Source: a virus
Taxonomy: Duplodnaviria; Heunggongvirae; Uroviricota; Caudoviricetes
IMG/VR virus record: IMGVR_UViG_3300042402_002792
Direction: 5' to 3' (one strand)
Length of the DNA stretch: 64,000 nt
Part shown: one piece after another, positions 42,088 through 64,000 of the stretch
Layout of the letters: every line of letters starts with the position of its first letter
Numbering within the stretch: the first letter of the stretch is position 1
Program-made: the position numbers and the translations under genes
The notes under the pieces: model-generated
Database searches by the model: none
What the model saw: only the letters and a program-made list of their open reading frames with translations
Told to the model about the DNA's origin: nothing

Positions 42088-42116
42088 TTGACAACAACTA
42101 AAAATTAGTGTATATT
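42088..42116 (+). promoter_or_regulatory. Sigma70 promoter of tmRNA
   Basis: TTGACA-17-TATATT. Confidence 0.8.
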
Positions 42117-42122
42117 GTAAGT

Positions 42123-42496
42123 TAAGACTGTATGAAGTAGATTGAAAAGGATTCAAGACGCGAGTTCGAATCTCGCCAGGTCCACCATAAAGTACATTAG
42201 CCAACACCCGACATACTGGGATAGTAAGATGGCATTGCCGCTAGTGTATTTTATAATGGGCCTGCTCCGGTAATCGATTGGGTCAAGAGTAATGAAATGG
42301 ACAGTCCGGCAATGTAGAAGCCGTTAGGGTTGGGGTTACCCGGCCGAAGAAGCAAAAAAAGTAAATGCAAAAGCAAATACATTCGAGTATTTCACAGTTG
42401 ACTTCGACATTACAGCAATGAATGACGAGCAATTCGAAATGGCGGCCTAAGAAACCGCAACTCCGGGGTAGGACTTACCTTGTAAAATAAACAACC
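42123..42496 (+). ncRNA. ssrA: Circularly permuted (two-piece) tmRNA
   Basis: T-arm plus CAGGTCC-A-CCA (ends 42187) lies upstream of the 5' strand GGGCCTG (42258); 7-bp acceptor stem with G3.U70; tag frame ends NDEQFEMAA-stop. Confidence 0.88.
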
Positions 42497-42522
42497 ATAG
42501 GACCTTCGGGTCCTATCTTTTT
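42497..42522 (+). terminator. Intrinsic terminator after tmRNA
   Basis: ATAGGACC-TTCG-GGTCCTAT-CTTTTT. Confidence 0.85.
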
Positions 42523-42553
42523 GGCTAAATTAATTAAATTATCGCCTCGAAGT

Positions 42554-60378: not shown

Positions 60379-61137
60379 ATGGATCTAGAAAAAGAAAAAC
60401 AGATTATAGATACAATTAGAAGATGCCAGCGAAACTGGGATCATTCTAGATCTATCCCAGATGAGCACATTGATCACTGGATTTATATTGCACAACATGC
60501 TCCTTCTAAACAGGACGAATCTTATTTTAATTTGTATGTAGTTACTGATAAAGAAAAAATAGAGTTATTGTCAAATCATACTTGGGGACATACGATGGAA
60601 GTTGCTCCGGGTAATTTCACTGGTGTAACTAGAAATACACAAATGGCTGCTAATGCGTATTTTCTTTTTACATTCAAACTTCCTTCAACTATTAGAGAAA
60701 TAAAACCAGACGGCCAACTTTATAATCAGACTGGAACAGAACTTGAAGAAAGAAAAAGAAATGGCTACGTTGCTATAGGAATAGCAGCGGGACTTATTGC
60801 TCAAAGTGCGGCAGATCTAGGATATAAAACGGGATTTAATACTAATCATTGTAGTCATGCACGAGGTGGCCCCGATCAAACAAAATTTTGGTGCGAAACA
60901 CTGGGTATAGGGCATTCTGAAAACATAACAGTTGGATTAGGAATAGGATATCCCGAAGAAGGTAAGGCTAGAAATGATCATAACGAAACAGAGTTTTTAA
61001 TTGGCACCTATCCCGGAACACGACATAACGTTAACGATCCTTATATTATAATTGATGGGCAGCAACATCCTACTCCTAAGATTCATTACAAGACCTACAG
61101 CGAAAAAACAAAAATGATCAAAGTCAGTAGATTTTAA
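60379..61137 (+). CDS. Nitroreductase-family protein
   Basis: RRCQRNWD, HAPSKQ, LGYKTGF, LGIGYP. Confidence 0.75.
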   Translation: MDLEKEKQIIDTIRRCQRNWDHSRSIPDEHIDHWIYIAQHAPSKQDESYFNLYVVTDKEKIELLSNHTWGHTMEVAPGNFTGVTRNTQMAANAYFLFTFKLPSTIREIKPDGQLYNQTGTELEERKRNGYVAIGIAAGLIAQSAADLGYKTGFNTNHCSHARGGPDQTKFWCETLGIGHSENITVGLGIGYPEEGKARNDHNETEFLIGTYPGTRHNVNDPYIIIDGQQHPTPKIHYKTYSEKTKMIKVSRF

Positions 61138-61144
61138 ATACTGT

Positions 61145-61720
61145 ATGAATTTATTGTTCCTTCCTATCGATATTGAAATTCCAAAGATTGATCTAACACA
61201 CTCTCTATCTATGATTAGAAAGGGAAAAAAACATCAATGGTGGTGGAACGTCGTTAATATTGATGAATCAGTTGATAAAAATTTAAAATTTATATTAGAT
61301 CAATTACCGTTTGACAAAATAACAAATGTATATTACAAAGAACAAACAAGGCCAGTGTCTCCGCACTGTGATGTATATCCAGATATGAATTTCGAAGAGG
61401 GAGAACACGCTAATATCTTAGATAACGAACCAGCAGGATATCGACTAGTCTTAGAAGGTTCTACTAATGTACTTTATGTTAAAAGTGGAGACACCTTTAA
61501 GTTAGCAGCATTGCCATCTGTGCCTAGTTGTTATCTTTTAAATTCTACAGCAGGGTTACACAAGGTCAAGGATGATCCGGGCAGAAAGATTATCTATGTT
61601 AGAGGATTCATTAATCCTGCTAAACACAAAGTTCTTATAAACAAAAGTTTAAAATTATATCAAAATTTTGCAGTATATGATGTTTCGACTAAAATAGTAG
61701 TTGACACTGAGAATAAATAA
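61145..61720 (+). CDS. 2OG-Fe(II) oxygenase-like protein
   Basis: PHCD...YLLNSTAGLHKV...RKII. Confidence 0.6.
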   Translation: MNLLFLPIDIEIPKIDLTHSLSMIRKGKKHQWWWNVVNIDESVDKNLKFILDQLPFDKITNVYYKEQTRPVSPHCDVYPDMNFEEGEHANILDNEPAGYRLVLEGSTNVLYVKSGDTFKLAALPSVPSCYLLNSTAGLHKVKDDPGRKIIYVRGFINPAKHKVLINKSLKLYQNFAVYDVSTKIVVDTENK

Positions 61721-61912
61721 ATATACAATAGAGACTAGGTTGTACAAAAATTAGTTGTTTTTTAGCCACAATTAAAACAGTGGTTGACAAGAGAACTAAA
61801 TAAATGTACAATAGAGACAAGTTAGCAAACAATGTGATCCGCAAGTGTTGTAAAAATACAACAAAAAAAGATTCCAAAAGTTGTTGACAAGGGCACTGAA
61901 AGGTGCTACAAT
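61701..61912 (+). promoter_or_regulatory. Three tandem sigma70 promoters for the tRNA array
   Basis: TTGACA-17-TACAAT at 61701, 61784, 61884; each followed by AGA(G/T)AC(T/A)AG. Confidence 0.9.
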
Positions 61913-61971
61913 AGATACAAGTTAGTTAGGAATGGTCCTAGCTAATAACAAGGATTTTAAAGAGAAAGCAA

Positions 61972-62106
61972 ATGACAAACGTAACGATACATTATTGCAG
62001 ACAAGACGCCAAACAGGCAGGCTTTATGCCCACCTCTTGGTTACTGTCAAGTAATGATCGTACACCAGAGATTTGCCAGGGGTCCCGGGAGGATCGTGTA
62101 AGTTAA
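61972..62106 (+). CDS. Attenuator leader peptide (44 aa, all 20 amino acids)
   Basis: MTNVTIHYCRQDAKQAGFMPTSWLLSSNDRTPEICQGSREDRVS; overlaps the antiterminator. Confidence 0.7.
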   Translation: MTNVTIHYCRQDAKQAGFMPTSWLLSSNDRTPEICQGSREDRVS

Positions 62107-62159
62107 CACTACACAATTACACCCAGAGGACCCCAGGACTAAACACCCTGGGGTTTTTT
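62079..62159 (+). terminator. Mutually exclusive antiterminator/terminator
   Basis: GGGGTCC(62079-85)/GGACCCC(62128-34) versus ACCCCAGG(62130-37)/CCTGGGGT(62147-54) plus T-tract. Confidence 0.8.
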
Positions 62160-62175
62160 ATTGCTCAAAGGAATT

Positions 62176-62331
62176 ATGACAGAAACAGATAGTAAGAAAC
62201 AACGAGAAGCTGAGTTTACACGTGAGCATACGCTAACTCAAGAAGATCTTCGTAAGATGATCCTTGAAAAGTTTGAACGTGCAAAAGTGTATAGCAAAGC
62301 CGTTAGAAAGCGCGAGATTGCTCAAGGGTAA
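62176..62331 (+). CDS. Small charged protein (51 aa), first ORF after the attenuator
   Basis: AAAGGA SD; MTETDSKKQREAEF... Confidence 0.55.
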   Translation: MTETDSKKQREAEFTREHTLTQEDLRKMILEKFERAKVYSKAVRKREIAQG

Positions 62332-62336
62332 TTGTA

Positions 62337-62441
62337 GACCGCGAAGTGTGTATAGGTAACGAGGACCTAGTCTGCACTTAAAACATAGACAAACGGGCGG
62401 CCTGTAGGATGGAGTTCTTCTTGTAGAACAAAAAATTACAG
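62337..62441 (+). ncRNA. Putative structured ncRNA
   Basis: Stems CCGC/GCGG, AAGTG/CACTT, TAGGT/ACCTA, CTGTA/TACAG, GTTCT/AGAAC. Confidence 0.45.
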
Positions 62442-62442
62442 C

Positions 62443-62561
62443 GTATTAAAGCAGATTGCCGAACAGTCAAATGGCCTATGCCGATGAGTAGTCTGCTTTA
62501 ATACACATATTCTCTTTCCGCTCTTGACGCGGTCAAAAACGCATAGCGGAGAGTGTGTTAT
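62443..62561 (+). ncRNA. Two adjacent stem-bounded RNA cassettes
   Basis: GTATTAAAGCAGATTG/TAGTCTGCTTTAATAC and ACACA..CTCT..CCGCT/AGCGG.AGAG.TGTGT. Confidence 0.55.
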
Positions 62562-62568
62562 AAATTTT

Positions 62569-62657
62569 GGGGGCTGTTCTCTACGGCGGACTGTAAATCC
62601 GTTGCCTTAATATGTAGAGTGGCTGGCAATTAGGTTCGATTCCTTCAGTCCCCACCA
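62569..62657 (+). tRNA. tRNA-Tyr(GUA), D-armless atypical
   Basis: Anticodon arm GCGGA-CTGTAAA-TCCGT, TTCGATT loop, CCA; only about 9 nt where the D-arm should be. Confidence 0.6.
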
Positions 62658-62662
62658 GTTAT

Positions 62663-62738
62663 GCTCGGTTCGTCTATCGGTTTAGGACGCTGCCCTTTCA
62701 AGGCGGAAAGACGGGTTCGATTCCCGTACCGAGTACCA
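62663..62738 (+). tRNA. tRNA-Glu(UUC)
   Basis: Full cloverleaf, loop CTTTCAA, CCA. Confidence 0.93.
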
Positions 62739-62743
62739 AATTT

Positions 62744-62818
62744 GGTTCCAAAGTGTTCATGGACGCACACGACACTGTCACTGTCGAAGAAGGGGATCGT
62801 TACCCCTTGGGACCGCCA
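62744..62818 (+). tRNA. tRNA-Asp(GUC)
   Basis: Cloverleaf, loop CTGTCAC, variant T-loop ATCGTTA, G73, CCA. Confidence 0.9.
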
Positions 62819-62827
62819 TCTTTCTAT

Positions 62828-62906
62828 TCCGTGAAATCCAAGCATGGTGCAAGGACCTGACTGTTAATCAGTGATTAGGTGAGTTCGATCCTCACACACG
62901 GAGCCA
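62828..62906 (+). tRNA. tRNA-Asn(GUU)
   Basis: Loop CTGTTAA, T-arm GTGAG/CTCAC, G73, CCA. Confidence 0.9.
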
Positions 62907-62993
62907 TTATAGAAGCACATACAGATCCGCCCTAAGTCCCGGGGAGATAGCGCGGACACGTTGAAGGACTGTTTAAATGTGTTTCTATAATGG
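62904..62993 (+). ncRNA. Stem-bounded inter-tRNA cassette
   Basis: 17-bp stem CCATTATAGAAGCACAT/ATGTGTTTCTATAATGG. Confidence 0.7.
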
Positions 62994-63066
62994 GGGCAGT
63001 AGTGGGCTACGGGTAACCCTTGCAAGGTTGCTGACTACAAGGGTTCGATTCCCTGGGCTTCCACCA
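62992..63066 (+). tRNA. tRNA-Ala(UGC), shrunken D-arm
   Basis: G3.U70, loop CTTGCAA, D-arm reduced to GTAG-TGGG-CTAC, CCA. Confidence 0.65.
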
Positions 63067-63071
63067 AATTA

Positions 63072-63146
63072 GCTCTGTAAGCATTGCTGGCGATGCAGGC
63101 GCCTTGTAAGCGTCAGAATGGGGTTCGATTCCTCAACGGAGCACCA
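63072..63146 (+). tRNA. tRNA-Thr(UGU)
   Basis: Cloverleaf, loop CTTGTAA, CCA. Confidence 0.92.
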
Positions 63147-63151
63147 ACTAC

Positions 63152-63244
63152 GGAAGTGTGGCTGAGCTGGCTTAAGGCAGCAGGTTGCTAACCTGTCGAT
63201 TCAGATAACTGGGTCCGAGGGTTCGAATCCCTCCGCTTCCACCA
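63152..63244 (+). tRNA. tRNA-Ser(GCU)
   Basis: Long variable arm, loop TTGCTAA, CCA. Confidence 0.93.
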
Positions 63245-63250
63245 AACAAA

Positions 63251-63329
63251 CTGGATGTAATGTCAGTCAGGTCAGACGGCCGGCCTTGGAAGTCGGAGGT
63301 CGCAGGTTCGAATCCTGCCATCCAGACCA
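63251..63329 (+). tRNA. tRNA-Pro(UGG)
   Basis: C1-G72, loop CTTGGAA, CCA. Confidence 0.92.
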
Positions 63330-63334
63330 GTTTA

Positions 63335-63396
63335 AGGATGCTAACAGCAAAAATTTATACATTTGACTTTTAATCAAAACCGTAAAAATGCATCCT
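63335..63396 (+). ncRNA. Stand-alone Lys anticodon stem-loop mimic
   Basis: AGGATGC/GCATCCT closing stem enclosing TTTGA-CTTTTAA-TCAAA. Confidence 0.6.
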
Positions 63397-63429
63397 GTTT
63401 ATTTTAATCAATGTTCAAAGGAGAACGAC

Positions 63430-63486
63430 ATGAAACGTGCTAAACGTTAGTGTCATCCTAGACCCCCGTATGGTCCTGGATGGCAC
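63430..63486 (+). other. Mini-ORF MKRAKR plus adjacent hairpin
   Basis: AAAGGAG SD, ATG AAA CGT GCT AAA CGT TAG, then GTGTCATCC/GGATGGCAC stem. Confidence 0.55.
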
Positions 63487-63512
63487 GTAAAAGAAAATTA
63501 TTTACGAATCAT

Positions 63513-63588
63513 CCACAGCTGGCGTTAACGGTAGCGTACTCGGCTCTTAACCGATGAGGTGTCAGTTCGAATCTGACGCTGTGGACCA
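63513..63588 (+). tRNA. tRNA-Lys(CUU)
   Basis: Loop CTCTTAA, T-arm GTCAG/CTGAC, CCA. Confidence 0.9.
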
Positions 63589-63591
63589 TAT

Positions 63592-63666
63592 GGGGGTATA
63601 ACTTAGCGGCTAAAGTAGTAGGCTTTTAACCTATTAATCAGGGTTCGATTCCCTGTGCCCCTACCA
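63592..63666 (+). tRNA. tRNA-Lys(UUU)
   Basis: Loop CTTTTAA, cloverleaf, CCA. Confidence 0.93.
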
Positions 63667-63774
63667 TAAGCAAACACATTACTGACGCCTCGGCGAAGGG
63701 TTCCGGTTACCCCGTAGCGATTAATAACTAAGCCAGCAGTTGGGTTCGCTGGATGTAGTGTGTTTACTTATGGT
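63663..63774 (+). ncRNA. Stem-bounded inter-tRNA cassette
   Basis: 20-bp stem ACCATAAGCAAACACATTAC/GTAGTGTGTTTACTTATGGT (one mismatch, one G.U). Confidence 0.7.
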
Positions 63775-63846
63775 AAAGTAGCATAATGGTTGTGCAACAC
63801 CTTCATACGGTGCCCGGTGTGAGTTCGAATCTCACCTTTACCACCA
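63772..63846 (+). tRNA. tRNA with CAU anticodon (elongator Met or Ile2)
   Basis: Loop TTCATAC, G1-C72, CCA. Confidence 0.88.
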
Positions 63847-63857
63847 GGTTTTGTTAG

Positions 63858-63959
63858 AGTGTTAGCAAGTGAAGTCACGCTATAAAGGTTTCTTCGAAGG
63901 ACTGATATAGTAGAAGGTGAGGGTTCGATTCCCTGAAAATCTCAACAGGCGAGAACACT
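63858..63959 (+). ncRNA. Putative structured ncRNA with T-arm mimic
   Basis: AGTGTT/AACACT closing stem, GCTATA/TATAGT, AGGG-TTCGATT-CCCT. Confidence 0.45.
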
Positions 63960-64000
63960 GGATGAATCCCAAGTAACGTACCGAGTCCCGCTCGAGTTTA

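What the first reader, a model, noticed from the sequence alone, without database searches (positions are those of the whole stretch)
61972..62159. Pan-codon attenuator: a leader sampling all 20 amino acids gates the phage tRNA array
Seen: a 44-codon leader containing all 20 amino acids (19 by codon 24, all by codon 33). 29 of the first 30 codons are different (35 distinct of 44), including ACG, CGG, CCC, TCC and GGG, which look uncommon in this AT-rich DNA. My rough birthday-problem estimate for at most one repeat in 30 under uniform usage is about 2-3e-3. Codons 36-44 form the 5' arm of a long antiterminator (GGGGTCC/GGACCCC plus GTGTAA/TTACAC enclosing the stop) that is mutually exclusive with terminator ACCCCAGG/CCTGGGGT-T5. 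Established: trp/his-type attenuators use runs of one codon. Inference: this is the inverse design. Shortage or cleavage of almost any tRNA stalls the ribosome upstream, lets the antiterminator form and turns on the replacement tRNAs, making it a general sensor of host tRNA-targeting defences or starvation. I am not aware of this being described.
Basis: partly seen in the sequence, partly recalled or inferred. Interest (0 to 1): 0.92.

Follow-up and report, generated by a model that had tools for sequence, protein, structure and literature searches.

The report
Pan-amino-acid leader gating phage tRNAs
A tiny translated gene that spells out all 20 amino acids, wired to a switchable transcription stop, sits in front of the tRNA gene array of this phage and of more than 120 related lake phages. 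It probably lets the phage make its own tRNAs whenever any amino acid is decoded slowly.

Summary
The 44-codon ORF (61972-62106) contains all 20 amino acids, and the antiterminator and terminator pairings are as described.

Two capped IMG/VR scans gave about 160 homologous units, with 125 distinct ORFs and a median peptide identity of 37%.
- **Conserved unit:** each has a sigma-70 promoter, an in-frame ORF of 34-60 codons, an antiterminator and a terminator.
- **Amino-acid completeness:** 90% of the peptides hold all 20 amino acids. An independent-column null gives 22%, and other short ORFs in the same loci give 2.3%. Cys, His and Tyr occur about once per peptide and moved position at least 33-39 times on the tree, with only 1-2 losses each.
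- **Switch:** the base shared by antiterminator and terminator covaries with both partners. The stop codon always lies between the antiterminator arms.
- **Context:** in 124 of 124 loci with enough sequence, a same-strand tRNA array follows.
- **Matched exception:** one subfamily whose leader lacks Glu and Tyr has tRNA-Glu, tRNA-Tyr and tRNA-Asp upstream of the leader.

My best reading is a ribosome-mediated attenuator that samples decoding of every amino acid and gates the tRNA array. Regulation itself is inferred, not shown. I found no published description. Earlier unverified notes of this scan report codon-matched leaders before tRNA arrays in other phages.

The parts
61701..61729 (+). Promoter-like site 1 (TTGACA-17-TACAAT)
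   Evidence: 11 of 12 matches. Not present in most homologues, which have one promoter.
61784..61812 (+). Promoter-like site 2 (TTGACA-17-TACAAT)
   Evidence: 11 of 12 matches.
61884..61912 (+). Proximal promoter of the leader unit (TTGACA-17-TACAAT with TG extension)
   Evidence: A near-consensus promoter lies within 120 nt upstream of the ATG in 113 of 114 distinct homologues. It aligns with the homologues' promoters.
61921..61946 (+). 5' hairpin at the predicted start of the transcript
   Evidence: MFE fold. It is present with changed sequence in the long-leader class of homologues. About a quarter of homologues lack it and are leaderless-like, with the -10 box ending 6-10 nt before the ATG.
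61972..62106 (+). Leader ORF of 44 codons plus TAA, encoding all 20 amino acids
   Evidence: In frame in all readable homologues. 113 of 125 distinct peptides hold all 20.
61968..62076 (+). Domain 1 of the leader RNA: a long-range helix (codons ~5-9 with the N-D-R codons) enclosing hairpin 62009-62040, which contains the invariant Trp codon
   Evidence: MFE folds. Cross-family support is only moderate, 41-78% of cells paired per helix.
62053..62070 (+). Most conserved stretch of the family (AATGATCGYACACCAGAG, codons N-D-R-T-P-E). Its 3' nine bases are predicted single-stranded.
   Evidence: Third codon positions are also conserved, except the C/T of the Arg codon.
62079..62085 (+). Antiterminator 5' arm GGGGTCC, inside the ORF (codons 36-38)
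   Evidence: It is read in two different frames across the family, 61 versus 61.
62104..62106 (+). Leader stop codon, between the two antiterminator arms
   Evidence: The stop lies 8-27 nt after the 5' arm and 17-39 nt before the 3' arm in all 125 distinct units.
62128..62134 (+). Antiterminator 3' arm GGACCCC, overlapping the terminator 5' arm
   Evidence: for three-way covariation; 97.9% of cells paired.
62130..62159 (+). Intrinsic terminator: 8-bp stem, 9-nt conserved loop, six T
   Evidence: RNAalifold consensus (11 pairs, 4 with compensatory changes). The scan missed it because its loop limit is 8 nt.
62176..62331 (+). First gene behind the terminator: a 51-aa charged protein of no known family, with a Shine-Dalgarno sequence
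   Evidence: An ORF of 30 aa or more starts within 45 nt of the terminator in 83 of 118 distinct loci. No Pfam, PHROG or Atlas family.
62568..64000 (+). Start of the gated tRNA array, which runs beyond the window
   Evidence: No promoter-like site on the + strand between 61912 and 64000.

Best explanation
This is a ribosome-mediated transcription attenuator whose leader ORF samples every amino acid.

**Proposed mechanism.**
- Transcripts from the strong promoter(s) begin with a 44-codon ORF.
- Its last 8-9 codons run through the 5' arm of a stable antiterminator. The antiterminator's 3' arm shares five bases with the terminator stem.
- If the ribosome translates smoothly to the stop codon, which lies between the arms, it keeps the antiterminator open. 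The terminator then forms and transcription ends at about 62159.
- If the ribosome is delayed at any codon upstream of the arm, because any one aminoacyl-tRNA is scarce, the antiterminator forms first. The same happens if no ribosome is loaded.
- RNA polymerase then reads on into the 51-aa ORF, the structured RNAs and the tRNA array.
- The phage would therefore raise its own tRNA output whenever decoding of any amino acid slows, whether through host tRNA cleavage, host shut-off, demand or starvation.

**Shown here:**
- a conserved ORF;
- selection for amino-acid completeness;
- covarying, mutually exclusive helices;
- the stop-codon geometry;
- the position at the head of tRNA arrays.

**Inferred:** that translation controls termination, the direction of the response, and the physiological trigger.
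For: **1. Family.**
- That gave 163 units and 125 distinct ORFs with a median peptide identity of 37%.

**2. ORF.** It is in frame in all units that could be read, despite many indels, at 34-60 codons.

**3. Completeness.**
- 90.4% of peptides hold all 20 amino acids. The independent-column null gives 22%, a composition null 3.2%, and 3,790 other short ORFs in the same loci 2.3%. The neighbouring ~53-aa ORF family mostly holds 14-18 types.
- Two 34-aa leaders still hold all 20.
- Cys, His and Tyr average 1.1-1.2 copies spread over 17, 10 and 14 alignment columns. Expected absence is 23-30% and observed absence is 0.8-1.6%.
- On a tree there are at least 36, 39 and 33 position changes against 2, 1 and 1 losses.
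- An internal Met is present in 120 of 122 peptides.
- The part upstream of the antiterminator arm alone holds all 20 in 95 of 125.

**4. Switch.**
- The shared base pairs with the antiterminator 5' arm as G-C 77, A-U 41, G-U 4, and mismatched 4 of 126.
- It pairs with the terminator 3' arm as C-G 81, U-G 29, U-A 16.
- The antiterminator outer helix is 97.9% paired, with 22 double changes.
- The 5' arm is read in two frames.

**5. Geometry and folding.**
- The stop codon is always between the arms.
- The antiterminator (mean -23.7 kcal/mol) forms in the pre-terminator transcript in 83 of 83 representatives.
- The terminator (mean -13.7 kcal/mol) forms in 83 of 83 when the RNA up to stop+10 nt (10 nt past the stop codon) is masked.

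**6. Context.**
- 124 of 124 loci have a same-strand tRNA array 185-1171 nt downstream.
- Arrays with 25 or more tRNAs cover 17-20 amino acids.
- 82 of 118 loci, and the window itself, have no promoter-like site between terminator and first tRNA.

**7. Matched exception.**
- In the L013/L111 subfamily the leader lacks Glu and Tyr, and Asp occurs only in the tail. There, tRNA-Glu, tRNA-Tyr and tRNA-Asp lie upstream of the leader.
- In L111 that upstream block has its own attenuator of the same architecture, whose ORF does contain L, E, Y, D and M.
Against: - There is no direct evidence of regulated termination. Metatranscriptome contigs only show that pieces on both sides of the terminator occur in RNA libraries.
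- A canonical Shine-Dalgarno sequence is absent in most leaders: 45 of 117 have an SD-like tetramer.
- Leader codons are not enriched for those read by the phage's anticodons, 40% against 43% Watson-Crick.
- 36 of 118 loci have a promoter-like site between terminator and first tRNA. Some of these lie inside the small ORF.
- Sporadic 19-amino-acid leaders still have the missing amino acid's tRNA downstream (L071 and L096 Leu, L133 Cys, L187 Val). The match between leader and array is therefore not strict.
- The matched exception is essentially one lineage.
- The conserved Glu codon ends only about 8 nt before the antiterminator arm, so a ribosome stalled there may partly cover the arm.
- The strongly conserved ACACCAGAG linker and the conserved terminator loop are not explained by this model.
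Confidence: 0.66

Rival explanations
1. A general translation-capacity sensor. The same attenuator reports only whether ribosomes are available and coupled to RNA polymerase (host shut-off, ribosome-targeting toxins, antibiotics). It does not report the supply of individual aminoacyl-tRNAs, and the amino-acid completeness is a side effect.
For: - The default fold without a ribosome is the antiterminator in 83 of 83 representatives, so any loss of leader translation would give read-through.
- There is no codon-level match to the phage anticodons.
- Known ribosome-mediated attenuators respond to stalling at many positions, for example bmrB-bmrCD (PMC4191407) and the whiB7 uORF (PMC10274678).
Against: - It does not explain why Cys, His and Tyr are kept at about one copy while moving at least 33-39 times with 1-2 losses.
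- It does not explain why 34-aa leaders still hold all 20.
- It does not explain why the subfamily with tRNA-Glu and tRNA-Tyr upstream lacks those residues.
Confidence: 0.15
2. A stand-alone, highly expressed small-protein gene (or dual-function small RNA) with its own promoter and a constitutive terminator. It merely happens to lie next to the tRNA array. The peptide or the ~240-nt RNA acts in trans, for example against a host defence.
For: - The unit has its own strong promoter and terminator.
- W and D-R-T-P-E are nearly invariant.
- The RNA is highly structured, z = -5.1.
- The terminator loop and a single-stranded linker are conserved without explanation.
- 36 of 118 loci have a promoter-like site after the terminator.
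- Attenuator RNAs and leader peptides acting in trans are known: rnTrpL and peTrpL (PMC6614838, PMC7298713).
Against: - The C-terminal third is read in two frames while the nucleotides are conserved.
- There is no third-position periodicity.
- Three-way covariation supports a switch rather than a plain terminator.
- The stop codon is always inside the antiterminator.
- The arrays in the window and in 70% of loci have no other promoter.
- Amino-acid completeness is unexplained by this reading.
- No protein family matches.
Confidence: 0.12
3. A purely non-coding structured RNA (or a chance ORF). The reading frame and its composition are by-products of a GC-balanced, high-complexity RNA.
For: - The region is 47% GC in 38% GC DNA.
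- It has a strong fold z-score.
- A local-composition null already gives 2.4% all-20.
- The window lies in an array rich in unexplained structured RNAs (earlier notes).
Against: - The frame is preserved through many indels in every readable member, with the ATG invariant.
- 90% are all-20 against 22% for a null that keeps every column's composition.
- Other frames and ORFs of the same loci give 2.3%.
Confidence: 0.03

Closest known systems
Classical leader-peptide attenuators of amino-acid operons (trpL, hisL, pheL, leuL, thrL, ilvL; E. coli type)
   Same: A short translated leader, an intrinsic terminator, and a mutually exclusive antiterminator whose 5' strand is covered by a ribosome that reaches the leader's stop codon. 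A slow ribosome upstream gives read-through.
   Different: - There is no run of codons for one or a few amino acids. Every amino acid is present, the rare ones about once.
- No anti-antiterminator (1:2) was found, so the untranslated default is read-through.
- The controlled genes are tRNA genes of a virus, not biosynthetic enzymes.
- The leader RNA is much more structured.
Ribosome-mediated attenuators that respond to translation stress (bmrB-bmrCD, PMC4191407; mef/msrD leaders, PMC4335068; whiB7 uORF, PMC10274678)
   Same: Stalling at various places in a leader ORF favours an antiterminator and switches on downstream genes. The sensor is not tied to one amino acid.
   Different: Those control resistance or stress genes of bacteria and are not reported to be selected for amino-acid completeness. 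Here completeness is the conserved trait and the output is tRNA.
T-box riboswitches
   Same: They also couple tRNA charging status to antitermination.
   Different: T-boxes bind one uncharged tRNA directly through a specifier codon and the T-box bulge, without translation. No Rfam T-box (or any other family) matches here at E <= 1.
Codon-matched leader attenuators before phage tRNA blocks, noted earlier in this scan on other genomes (e1-1919666, e1-5326844, e1-3450868, e1-5369942 and others; unpublished AI notes)
   Same: A promoter, mini-ORF and terminator/antiterminator cassette in front of tRNA blocks, with the leader's amino acids mirroring the tRNAs behind it. One of those leaders has 18 amino acids.
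   Different: This is a distinct, sequence-conserved family in lake phages with a full 20-amino-acid leader in front of near-complete tRNA sets. Here the completeness was tested against nulls and on a tree.
Phage tRNAs as counter-defence (PMC10264068, PMC11464382, PMC11555353)
   Same: These provide the physiological rationale: phage tRNAs replace host tRNAs cleaved by anticodon nucleases, PARIS or retron effectors.
   Different: Those papers deal with the tRNAs themselves. None describes a translational sensor controlling their transcription.

Membership tests
Leader-peptide (ribosome-mediated) transcription attenuator | Short ORF in the 5' leader, kept open in relatives | tested here: met
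   34-60 codons, in frame in all readable homologues, with the ATG invariant.
Leader-peptide (ribosome-mediated) transcription attenuator | Intrinsic terminator between the leader and the controlled genes | tested here: met
   8-bp GC-rich stem plus T-run at 62130-62159. It is the RNAalifold consensus with compensatory changes.
Leader-peptide (ribosome-mediated) transcription attenuator | Antiterminator mutually exclusive with the terminator, supported by covariation | tested here: met
   The shared base covaries with both partners. The outer helix is 97.9% paired with 22 double changes.
Leader-peptide (ribosome-mediated) transcription attenuator | Leader stop codon placed so that a terminating ribosome blocks the antiterminator | tested here: met
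   The stop lies between the arms in 125 of 125 units. Masking up to stop+10 nt (10 nt past the stop codon) gives the terminator in 83 of 83.
Leader-peptide (ribosome-mediated) transcription attenuator | Regulatory codons: a run or enrichment of codons for the sensed amino acid(s) | tested here: not met
   There are no runs. All 20 amino acids are present, with rare ones at about one copy. This is the point of difference, not a failure of the mechanism.
Leader-peptide (ribosome-mediated) transcription attenuator | Anti-antiterminator or pause hairpin (1:2) giving termination when the leader is untranslated | tested here: inconclusive
   No competitor of the antiterminator was found, since the pre-terminator MFE contains it in 83 of 83. 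Upstream domain 1 could act as a pause hairpin but is only moderately supported.
Leader-peptide (ribosome-mediated) transcription attenuator | Read-through changes with translation of the leader | not testable with these tools
   This needs a reporter, in vitro transcription-translation or Term-seq. The RNA contigs cannot show ends or levels.
T-box riboswitch | Specifier loop and T-box sequence (Rfam RF00230) | tested here: not met
   No Rfam match at E <= 1 in 61900-62560.
Any curated RNA family (Rfam 15) | Covariance-model match | tested here: not met
   Only tRNA hits appear in 61000-64000.
Known protein families (Pfam, PHROGs) | Profile match of the leader peptide | tested here: not met
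   No family. The protein collection holds only 8 unnamed relatives.

The most novel reading that the evidence does not exclude
Large lake phages carry a dedicated translation-speed sensor: a leader ORF kept under selection to contain every amino acid. It turns on transcription of a near-complete viral tRNA set whenever decoding of any one amino acid slows. This would be a homeostatic, defence-agnostic answer to tRNA-cleaving immunity, host shut-off and starvation, and the first attenuator known to control tRNA genes. The partition seen in L111, with two leaders of complementary composition before two tRNA blocks, would mean that leaders are tuned to the block they gate.
Probability: 0.6. Interest if true: 0.92.

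Novelty: new variant of a known kind. Interest (0 to 1): 0.86.

Why it matters
- How phage tRNA genes are regulated is essentially unknown. Their role against tRNA-targeting defences is a current topic (PMC10264068, PMC11464382, PMC11555353).
- A leader selected to contain all 20 amino acids would be the logical inverse of the textbook trp and his attenuators. It would be a single cis element that senses the whole aminoacyl-tRNA pool.
- It is directly testable. In a reconstituted transcription-translation system, omitting any one amino acid should raise read-through, and removing that amino acid's only codon should abolish the response.
- It also offers a compact, natural any-amino-acid or translation-stress reporter.
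- It gives a genomic marker for regulated tRNA arrays in uncultivated phages.

Tried and rejected
- **Rfam:** at E <= 1, only tRNAs matched.
- **INPHARED phage records:** searched by DNA and by a structural protein. The only hit was a promoter-like 60-bp match in Bacillus phage Mater.
- **Window's own assembly:** not held. The nearest record, G001, is a 28-kb fragment without the region.
- **Neighbouring 191-aa ORF:** its only relative (L001) has no tRNAs or leader.
- **RNAalifold on the full MAFFT alignment:** found only the terminator. Projecting the window's fold on a sequence alignment gave 59.7% pairing. After covariance-model realignment only the antiterminator outer helix is strongly supported.
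- **Codon-level matching** of the leader to the phage anticodons: none.
- **Chimera test** between nearest neighbours: 84% of chimeras are still all-20, so the test does not discriminate.
- **Metatranscriptome contigs (4 runs):** exact pieces of the leader (62003-62147), of the promoter region and of 62232-62436 occur in RNA libraries, and one relative's contig bridges the terminator. Contigs show neither ends, levels nor that the DNA is transcribed.
- **Genome-collection scan:** 5 of 6 hits were chance matches. One true member lies on a 6.2-kb contig binned with a Polynucleobacter MAG, which is a weak host hint only.
- **Protein look-ups:** Pfam, PHROGs, the protein collection and the Atlas gave nothing for the leader peptide or the 51-aa ORF.
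- **TnaC-like arrest peptide:** the W-to-P spacing varies from 9 to 14 residues, so this reading was dropped (reading).
- **Literature:** five full-text searches found no description.

Full report
**What is in the window.**
- Three near-consensus sigma-70 promoters (TTGACA-17-TACAAT) at 61701, 61784 and 61884 point rightwards.
- After the last one come a 5' hairpin (61921-61946), an A-rich stretch and the ATG at 61972.
- The ORF runs 44 codons to the TAA at 62104-62106.
- It contains all 20 amino acids: 19 by codon 24 and all by codon 33. It uses 35 distinct codons, 29 in the first 30, several of them rare in this phage.
- GGGGTCC (62079-62085, inside the ORF) can pair with GGACCCC (62128-62134).
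- GGACCCC overlaps the terminator stem ACCCCAGG/CCTGGGGT, which is followed by six T ending at 62159.
- The 251-nt stretch folds far better than shuffles, z = -5.1.
- No Rfam family matches it.
- Behind the terminator lie a 51-aa ORF with a good Shine-Dalgarno sequence (62176-62331), structured non-tRNA elements, and a tRNA array from about 62568 to beyond the window.
- No further promoter-like site lies on that strand.

**Is the single observation more than chance?**
- Alone, only modestly. All 20 amino acids in 44 codons has P about 0.01 under the phage's coding usage and 0.024 under a local non-coding null.
- At least 29 of 30 distinct codons has P = 5.5e-5 (coding null) or 0.0026 (non-coding null).
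- It is the only one of 81 comparable ORFs in the window with either property.

**A large family.**
About one match was expected by chance.
- The 200 nt upstream of almost every hit aligned with the window.
- A second scan with the most conserved internal stretch again hit the limit and brought members with variant terminators.
- In all I read 163 units with 125 distinct ORFs. Median pairwise peptide identity is 37% and the minimum is 8%.
- They come mostly from lake and freshwater samples, on contigs up to 383 kb.
- The conserved unit is the whole cassette:
  - a promoter within 120 nt of the ATG in 113 of 114;
  - either a 5' hairpin with an A-rich leader or a leaderless-like start, with the -10 box ending 6-10 nt before the ATG in 27 of 117;
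  - the ORF, the antiterminator and the terminator.

**The ORF is real.**
- The aligned ATG is invariant.
- Every unit that could be read has an open frame of 34-60 codons, despite many insertions and deletions. One example is a variable hairpin inserted before the antiterminator arm.
- The peptide is not evolving like an ordinary protein. There is no excess of third-position change.
- The GGGGTCC arm is read in two frames, 61 against 61.
- The conserved N-D-R-T-P-E codons are conserved at third positions too. RNA-level constraints therefore dominate the sequence, while the frame is kept open.

**Amino-acid completeness is selected.**
- 113 of 125 distinct peptides (90.4%) contain all 20 amino acids, and almost all the rest contain 19.
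- Nulls and controls:
  - drawing each alignment column independently, which keeps all site conservation, gives 22%;
  - random peptides of the family's composition give 3.2%;
  - 3,790 other ATG ORFs of 34-60 codons in the same loci give 2.3%;
  - the ~53-aa ORF family next door has mostly 14-18 types.
- Two 34-residue leaders still hold all 20.
- The residues at risk tell the story. Cys, His and Tyr average 1.1-1.2 copies, scattered over 17, 10 and 14 alignment columns. Independent columns would leave 23-30% of peptides without each, but only 0.8-1.6% lack one.
- On a FastTree of the 125 ORFs the position state of Cys, His and Tyr changes at least 36, 39 and 33 times, against 2, 1 and 1 losses.
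- An internal Met, which is read by elongator tRNA, is present in 120 of 122.
- The window's near-perfect codon non-redundancy is not shared. Homologues have 22-28 distinct codons in the first 30.

**The switch.**
- The base shared by the two helices (the last C of GGACCCC) pairs with the first base of the 5' arm as G-C 77, A-U 41, G-U 4, and is mismatched in 4 of 126.
- The same base pairs with the terminator's 3' arm as C-G 81, U-G 29, U-A 16. A second arm pair changes C-G to U-A in three members.
- On a covariance-model alignment of 90 members the antiterminator outer helix is 97.9% paired with 22 double changes.
- RNAalifold calls the terminator, with compensatory changes at four pairs.
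- The stop codon always lies between the arms: 8-27 nt after the 5' arm and 17-39 nt before the 3' arm.
- Folding 83 representatives:
  - the antiterminator (mean -23.7 kcal/mol) is in the MFE of the transcript up to the terminator's 3' arm in 83 of 83;
  - the terminator (mean -13.7 kcal/mol) forms in 83 of 83 when the RNA up to 10 nt past the stop codon is masked, as by a terminating ribosome.
- No anti-antiterminator was found, so an untranslated leader should read through.
- The upstream domain is a long-range helix enclosing the hairpin with the invariant Trp codon. It is predicted in most members but only moderately supported across the family, at 41-78% pairing.

**Context.**
- In 124 of 124 loci with at least 1.5 kb held downstream, a same-strand tRNA array follows. 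The first tRNA lies 185-1171 nt after the terminator, and 4-41 tRNAs lie within the stored locus.
- Only 39 of 131 loci have any tRNA upstream, usually one or two for Met, Leu or Arg that recur downstream.
- Arrays with 25 or more tRNAs cover 17-20 amino acids.
- 82 of 118 distinct loci have no promoter-like site between terminator and first tRNA. Of the 36 that do, some sites lie inside the small ORF.
- The region of the ORF upstream of the antiterminator arm, where a stalled ribosome would leave the arm free, already holds all 20 amino acids in 95 of 125 and at least 19 in 123.

**A natural experiment.**
- The divergent L013/L111 subfamily has leaders without Glu or Tyr, and with Asp only in the tail inside the antiterminator.
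- In exactly these phages tRNA-Glu, tRNA-Tyr and tRNA-Asp lie upstream of the leader, together with Ser or Leu and Met tRNAs.
  - In L013 the 20 tRNAs held downstream of the leader include none for Glu, Tyr or Asp.
  - In L111 the six tRNAs held downstream, in a locus that ends 736 nt after the terminator, likewise include none.
- In L111 the upstream block (Leu, Leu, Glu, Tyr, Asp, Met) has its own cassette of the same design:
  - a promoter and a 25-codon ORF (L111:4873-4950);
  - a 10-bp antiterminator whose 5' arm ends one base before the stop codon;
  - an overlapping terminator.
  - That ORF contains L, E, Y, D and M.
- This is one lineage, and the match is not strict elsewhere. Sporadic 19-amino-acid leaders still have the missing amino acid's tRNA downstream. 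Leader codons are not enriched for those read by phage anticodons.

**Interpretation.**
- The simplest model that uses all these facts is a ribosome-mediated attenuator.
  - Completed, timely translation of the leader keeps the antiterminator open and transcription stops.
  - A delay at any codon before the arm lets the antiterminator form, and the small ORF, structured RNAs and tRNA array are transcribed.
- Because every amino acid is represented, shortage or cleavage of almost any tRNA would be sensed.
- The model does not explain:
  - the near-invariant single-stranded ACACCAGAG linker;
  - the conserved terminator loop (AYTAAAMAC);
  - the role of the 51-aa protein;
  - the weak or absent Shine-Dalgarno sequences;
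  - the Glu codon lying only about 8 nt before the arm.
- Expression data were not decisive.

**Comparison and novelty.**
- The mechanism class is known: leader-peptide attenuation, and ribosome-mediated attenuators responding to general translation stress (PMC4191407, PMC4335068, PMC10274678).
- The design and the target are not. Five full-text searches found no description of a leader selected for all 20 amino acids, or of attenuation of phage tRNA genes.
- Earlier AI notes of this scan report codon-matched leader attenuators before tRNA blocks in other phages. They are unverified but agree in kind. This family is a separate, sequence-conserved case in which completeness was tested quantitatively.
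- I rate it a new variant of a known kind, of high interest, with about two-thirds confidence in the mechanism.

Noticed in passing
window 62176-62331: A 51-aa, highly charged ORF with a good Shine-Dalgarno sequence directly behind the terminator. A related ORF (shared motif around H-T-L-T...E-R-A) follows the terminator in 83 of 118 distinct loci. It has no Pfam, PHROG or Atlas family, and it would be co-regulated with the tRNAs.
   Followed up: partly
window 62340-62560: A conserved structured element after the small ORF. It is a hairpin with loop AACG(A/C)G and covarying stem, then CACT-TAAAA, then GGGCGGCC...GGATG. The same element follows the leader directly in loci that lack the small ORF. 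It is probably one of the Y-RNA-like modules flagged by earlier notes on this genome.
   Followed up: no
window 62568-62654, 62827-62900, 62990-63066: tRNA-like genes missed by ARAGORN. They carry Tyr(GTA), Asn(GTT) and Ala(TGC) anticodon loops with odd or reduced D-arms. The first gets only a weak Rfam tRNA-Sec score of 27.8 bits.
   Followed up: no
window 63421-63441: A six-codon ORF (M-K-R-A-K-R) with a strong Shine-Dalgarno sequence, followed by a hairpin, about 70 nt upstream of two tRNA-Lys genes (63513, 63592). It may be a Lys/Arg mini-leader inside the array.
   Followed up: no
window 61701-61912 and 61847-61862: Three tandem near-consensus promoters share the initial transcribed sequence AGAGAC(T/A)AG. 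A hairpin GTTGTA-AAAA-TACAAC just upstream of the proximal promoter is conserved in many homologues.
   Followed up: no
L111:4838-5000: A second attenuator of the same architecture but unrelated sequence. It has a 25-codon ORF, a 10-bp antiterminator overlapping a terminator, and sits before a Leu-Leu-Glu-Tyr-Asp-Met tRNA block. It lies about 3 kb upstream of the family-type leader, which lacks Glu and Tyr.
   Followed up: partly
L183:7778-7903: A natural deletion variant of the leader in which the interior of the antiterminator is missing and a short CCAGGG/CCCTGG hairpin plus T-run remains.
   Followed up: no
L197:5711-5902: One bona fide family member (127.8 bits with the covariance model) lies on a 6.2-kb contig binned with a Polynucleobacter MAG. 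It may be a host hint or a mis-binned phage contig.
   Followed up: no
window 42095-42541: ARAGORN calls a permuted tmRNA-like gene with a 27-residue tag peptide in this phage.
   Followed up: no
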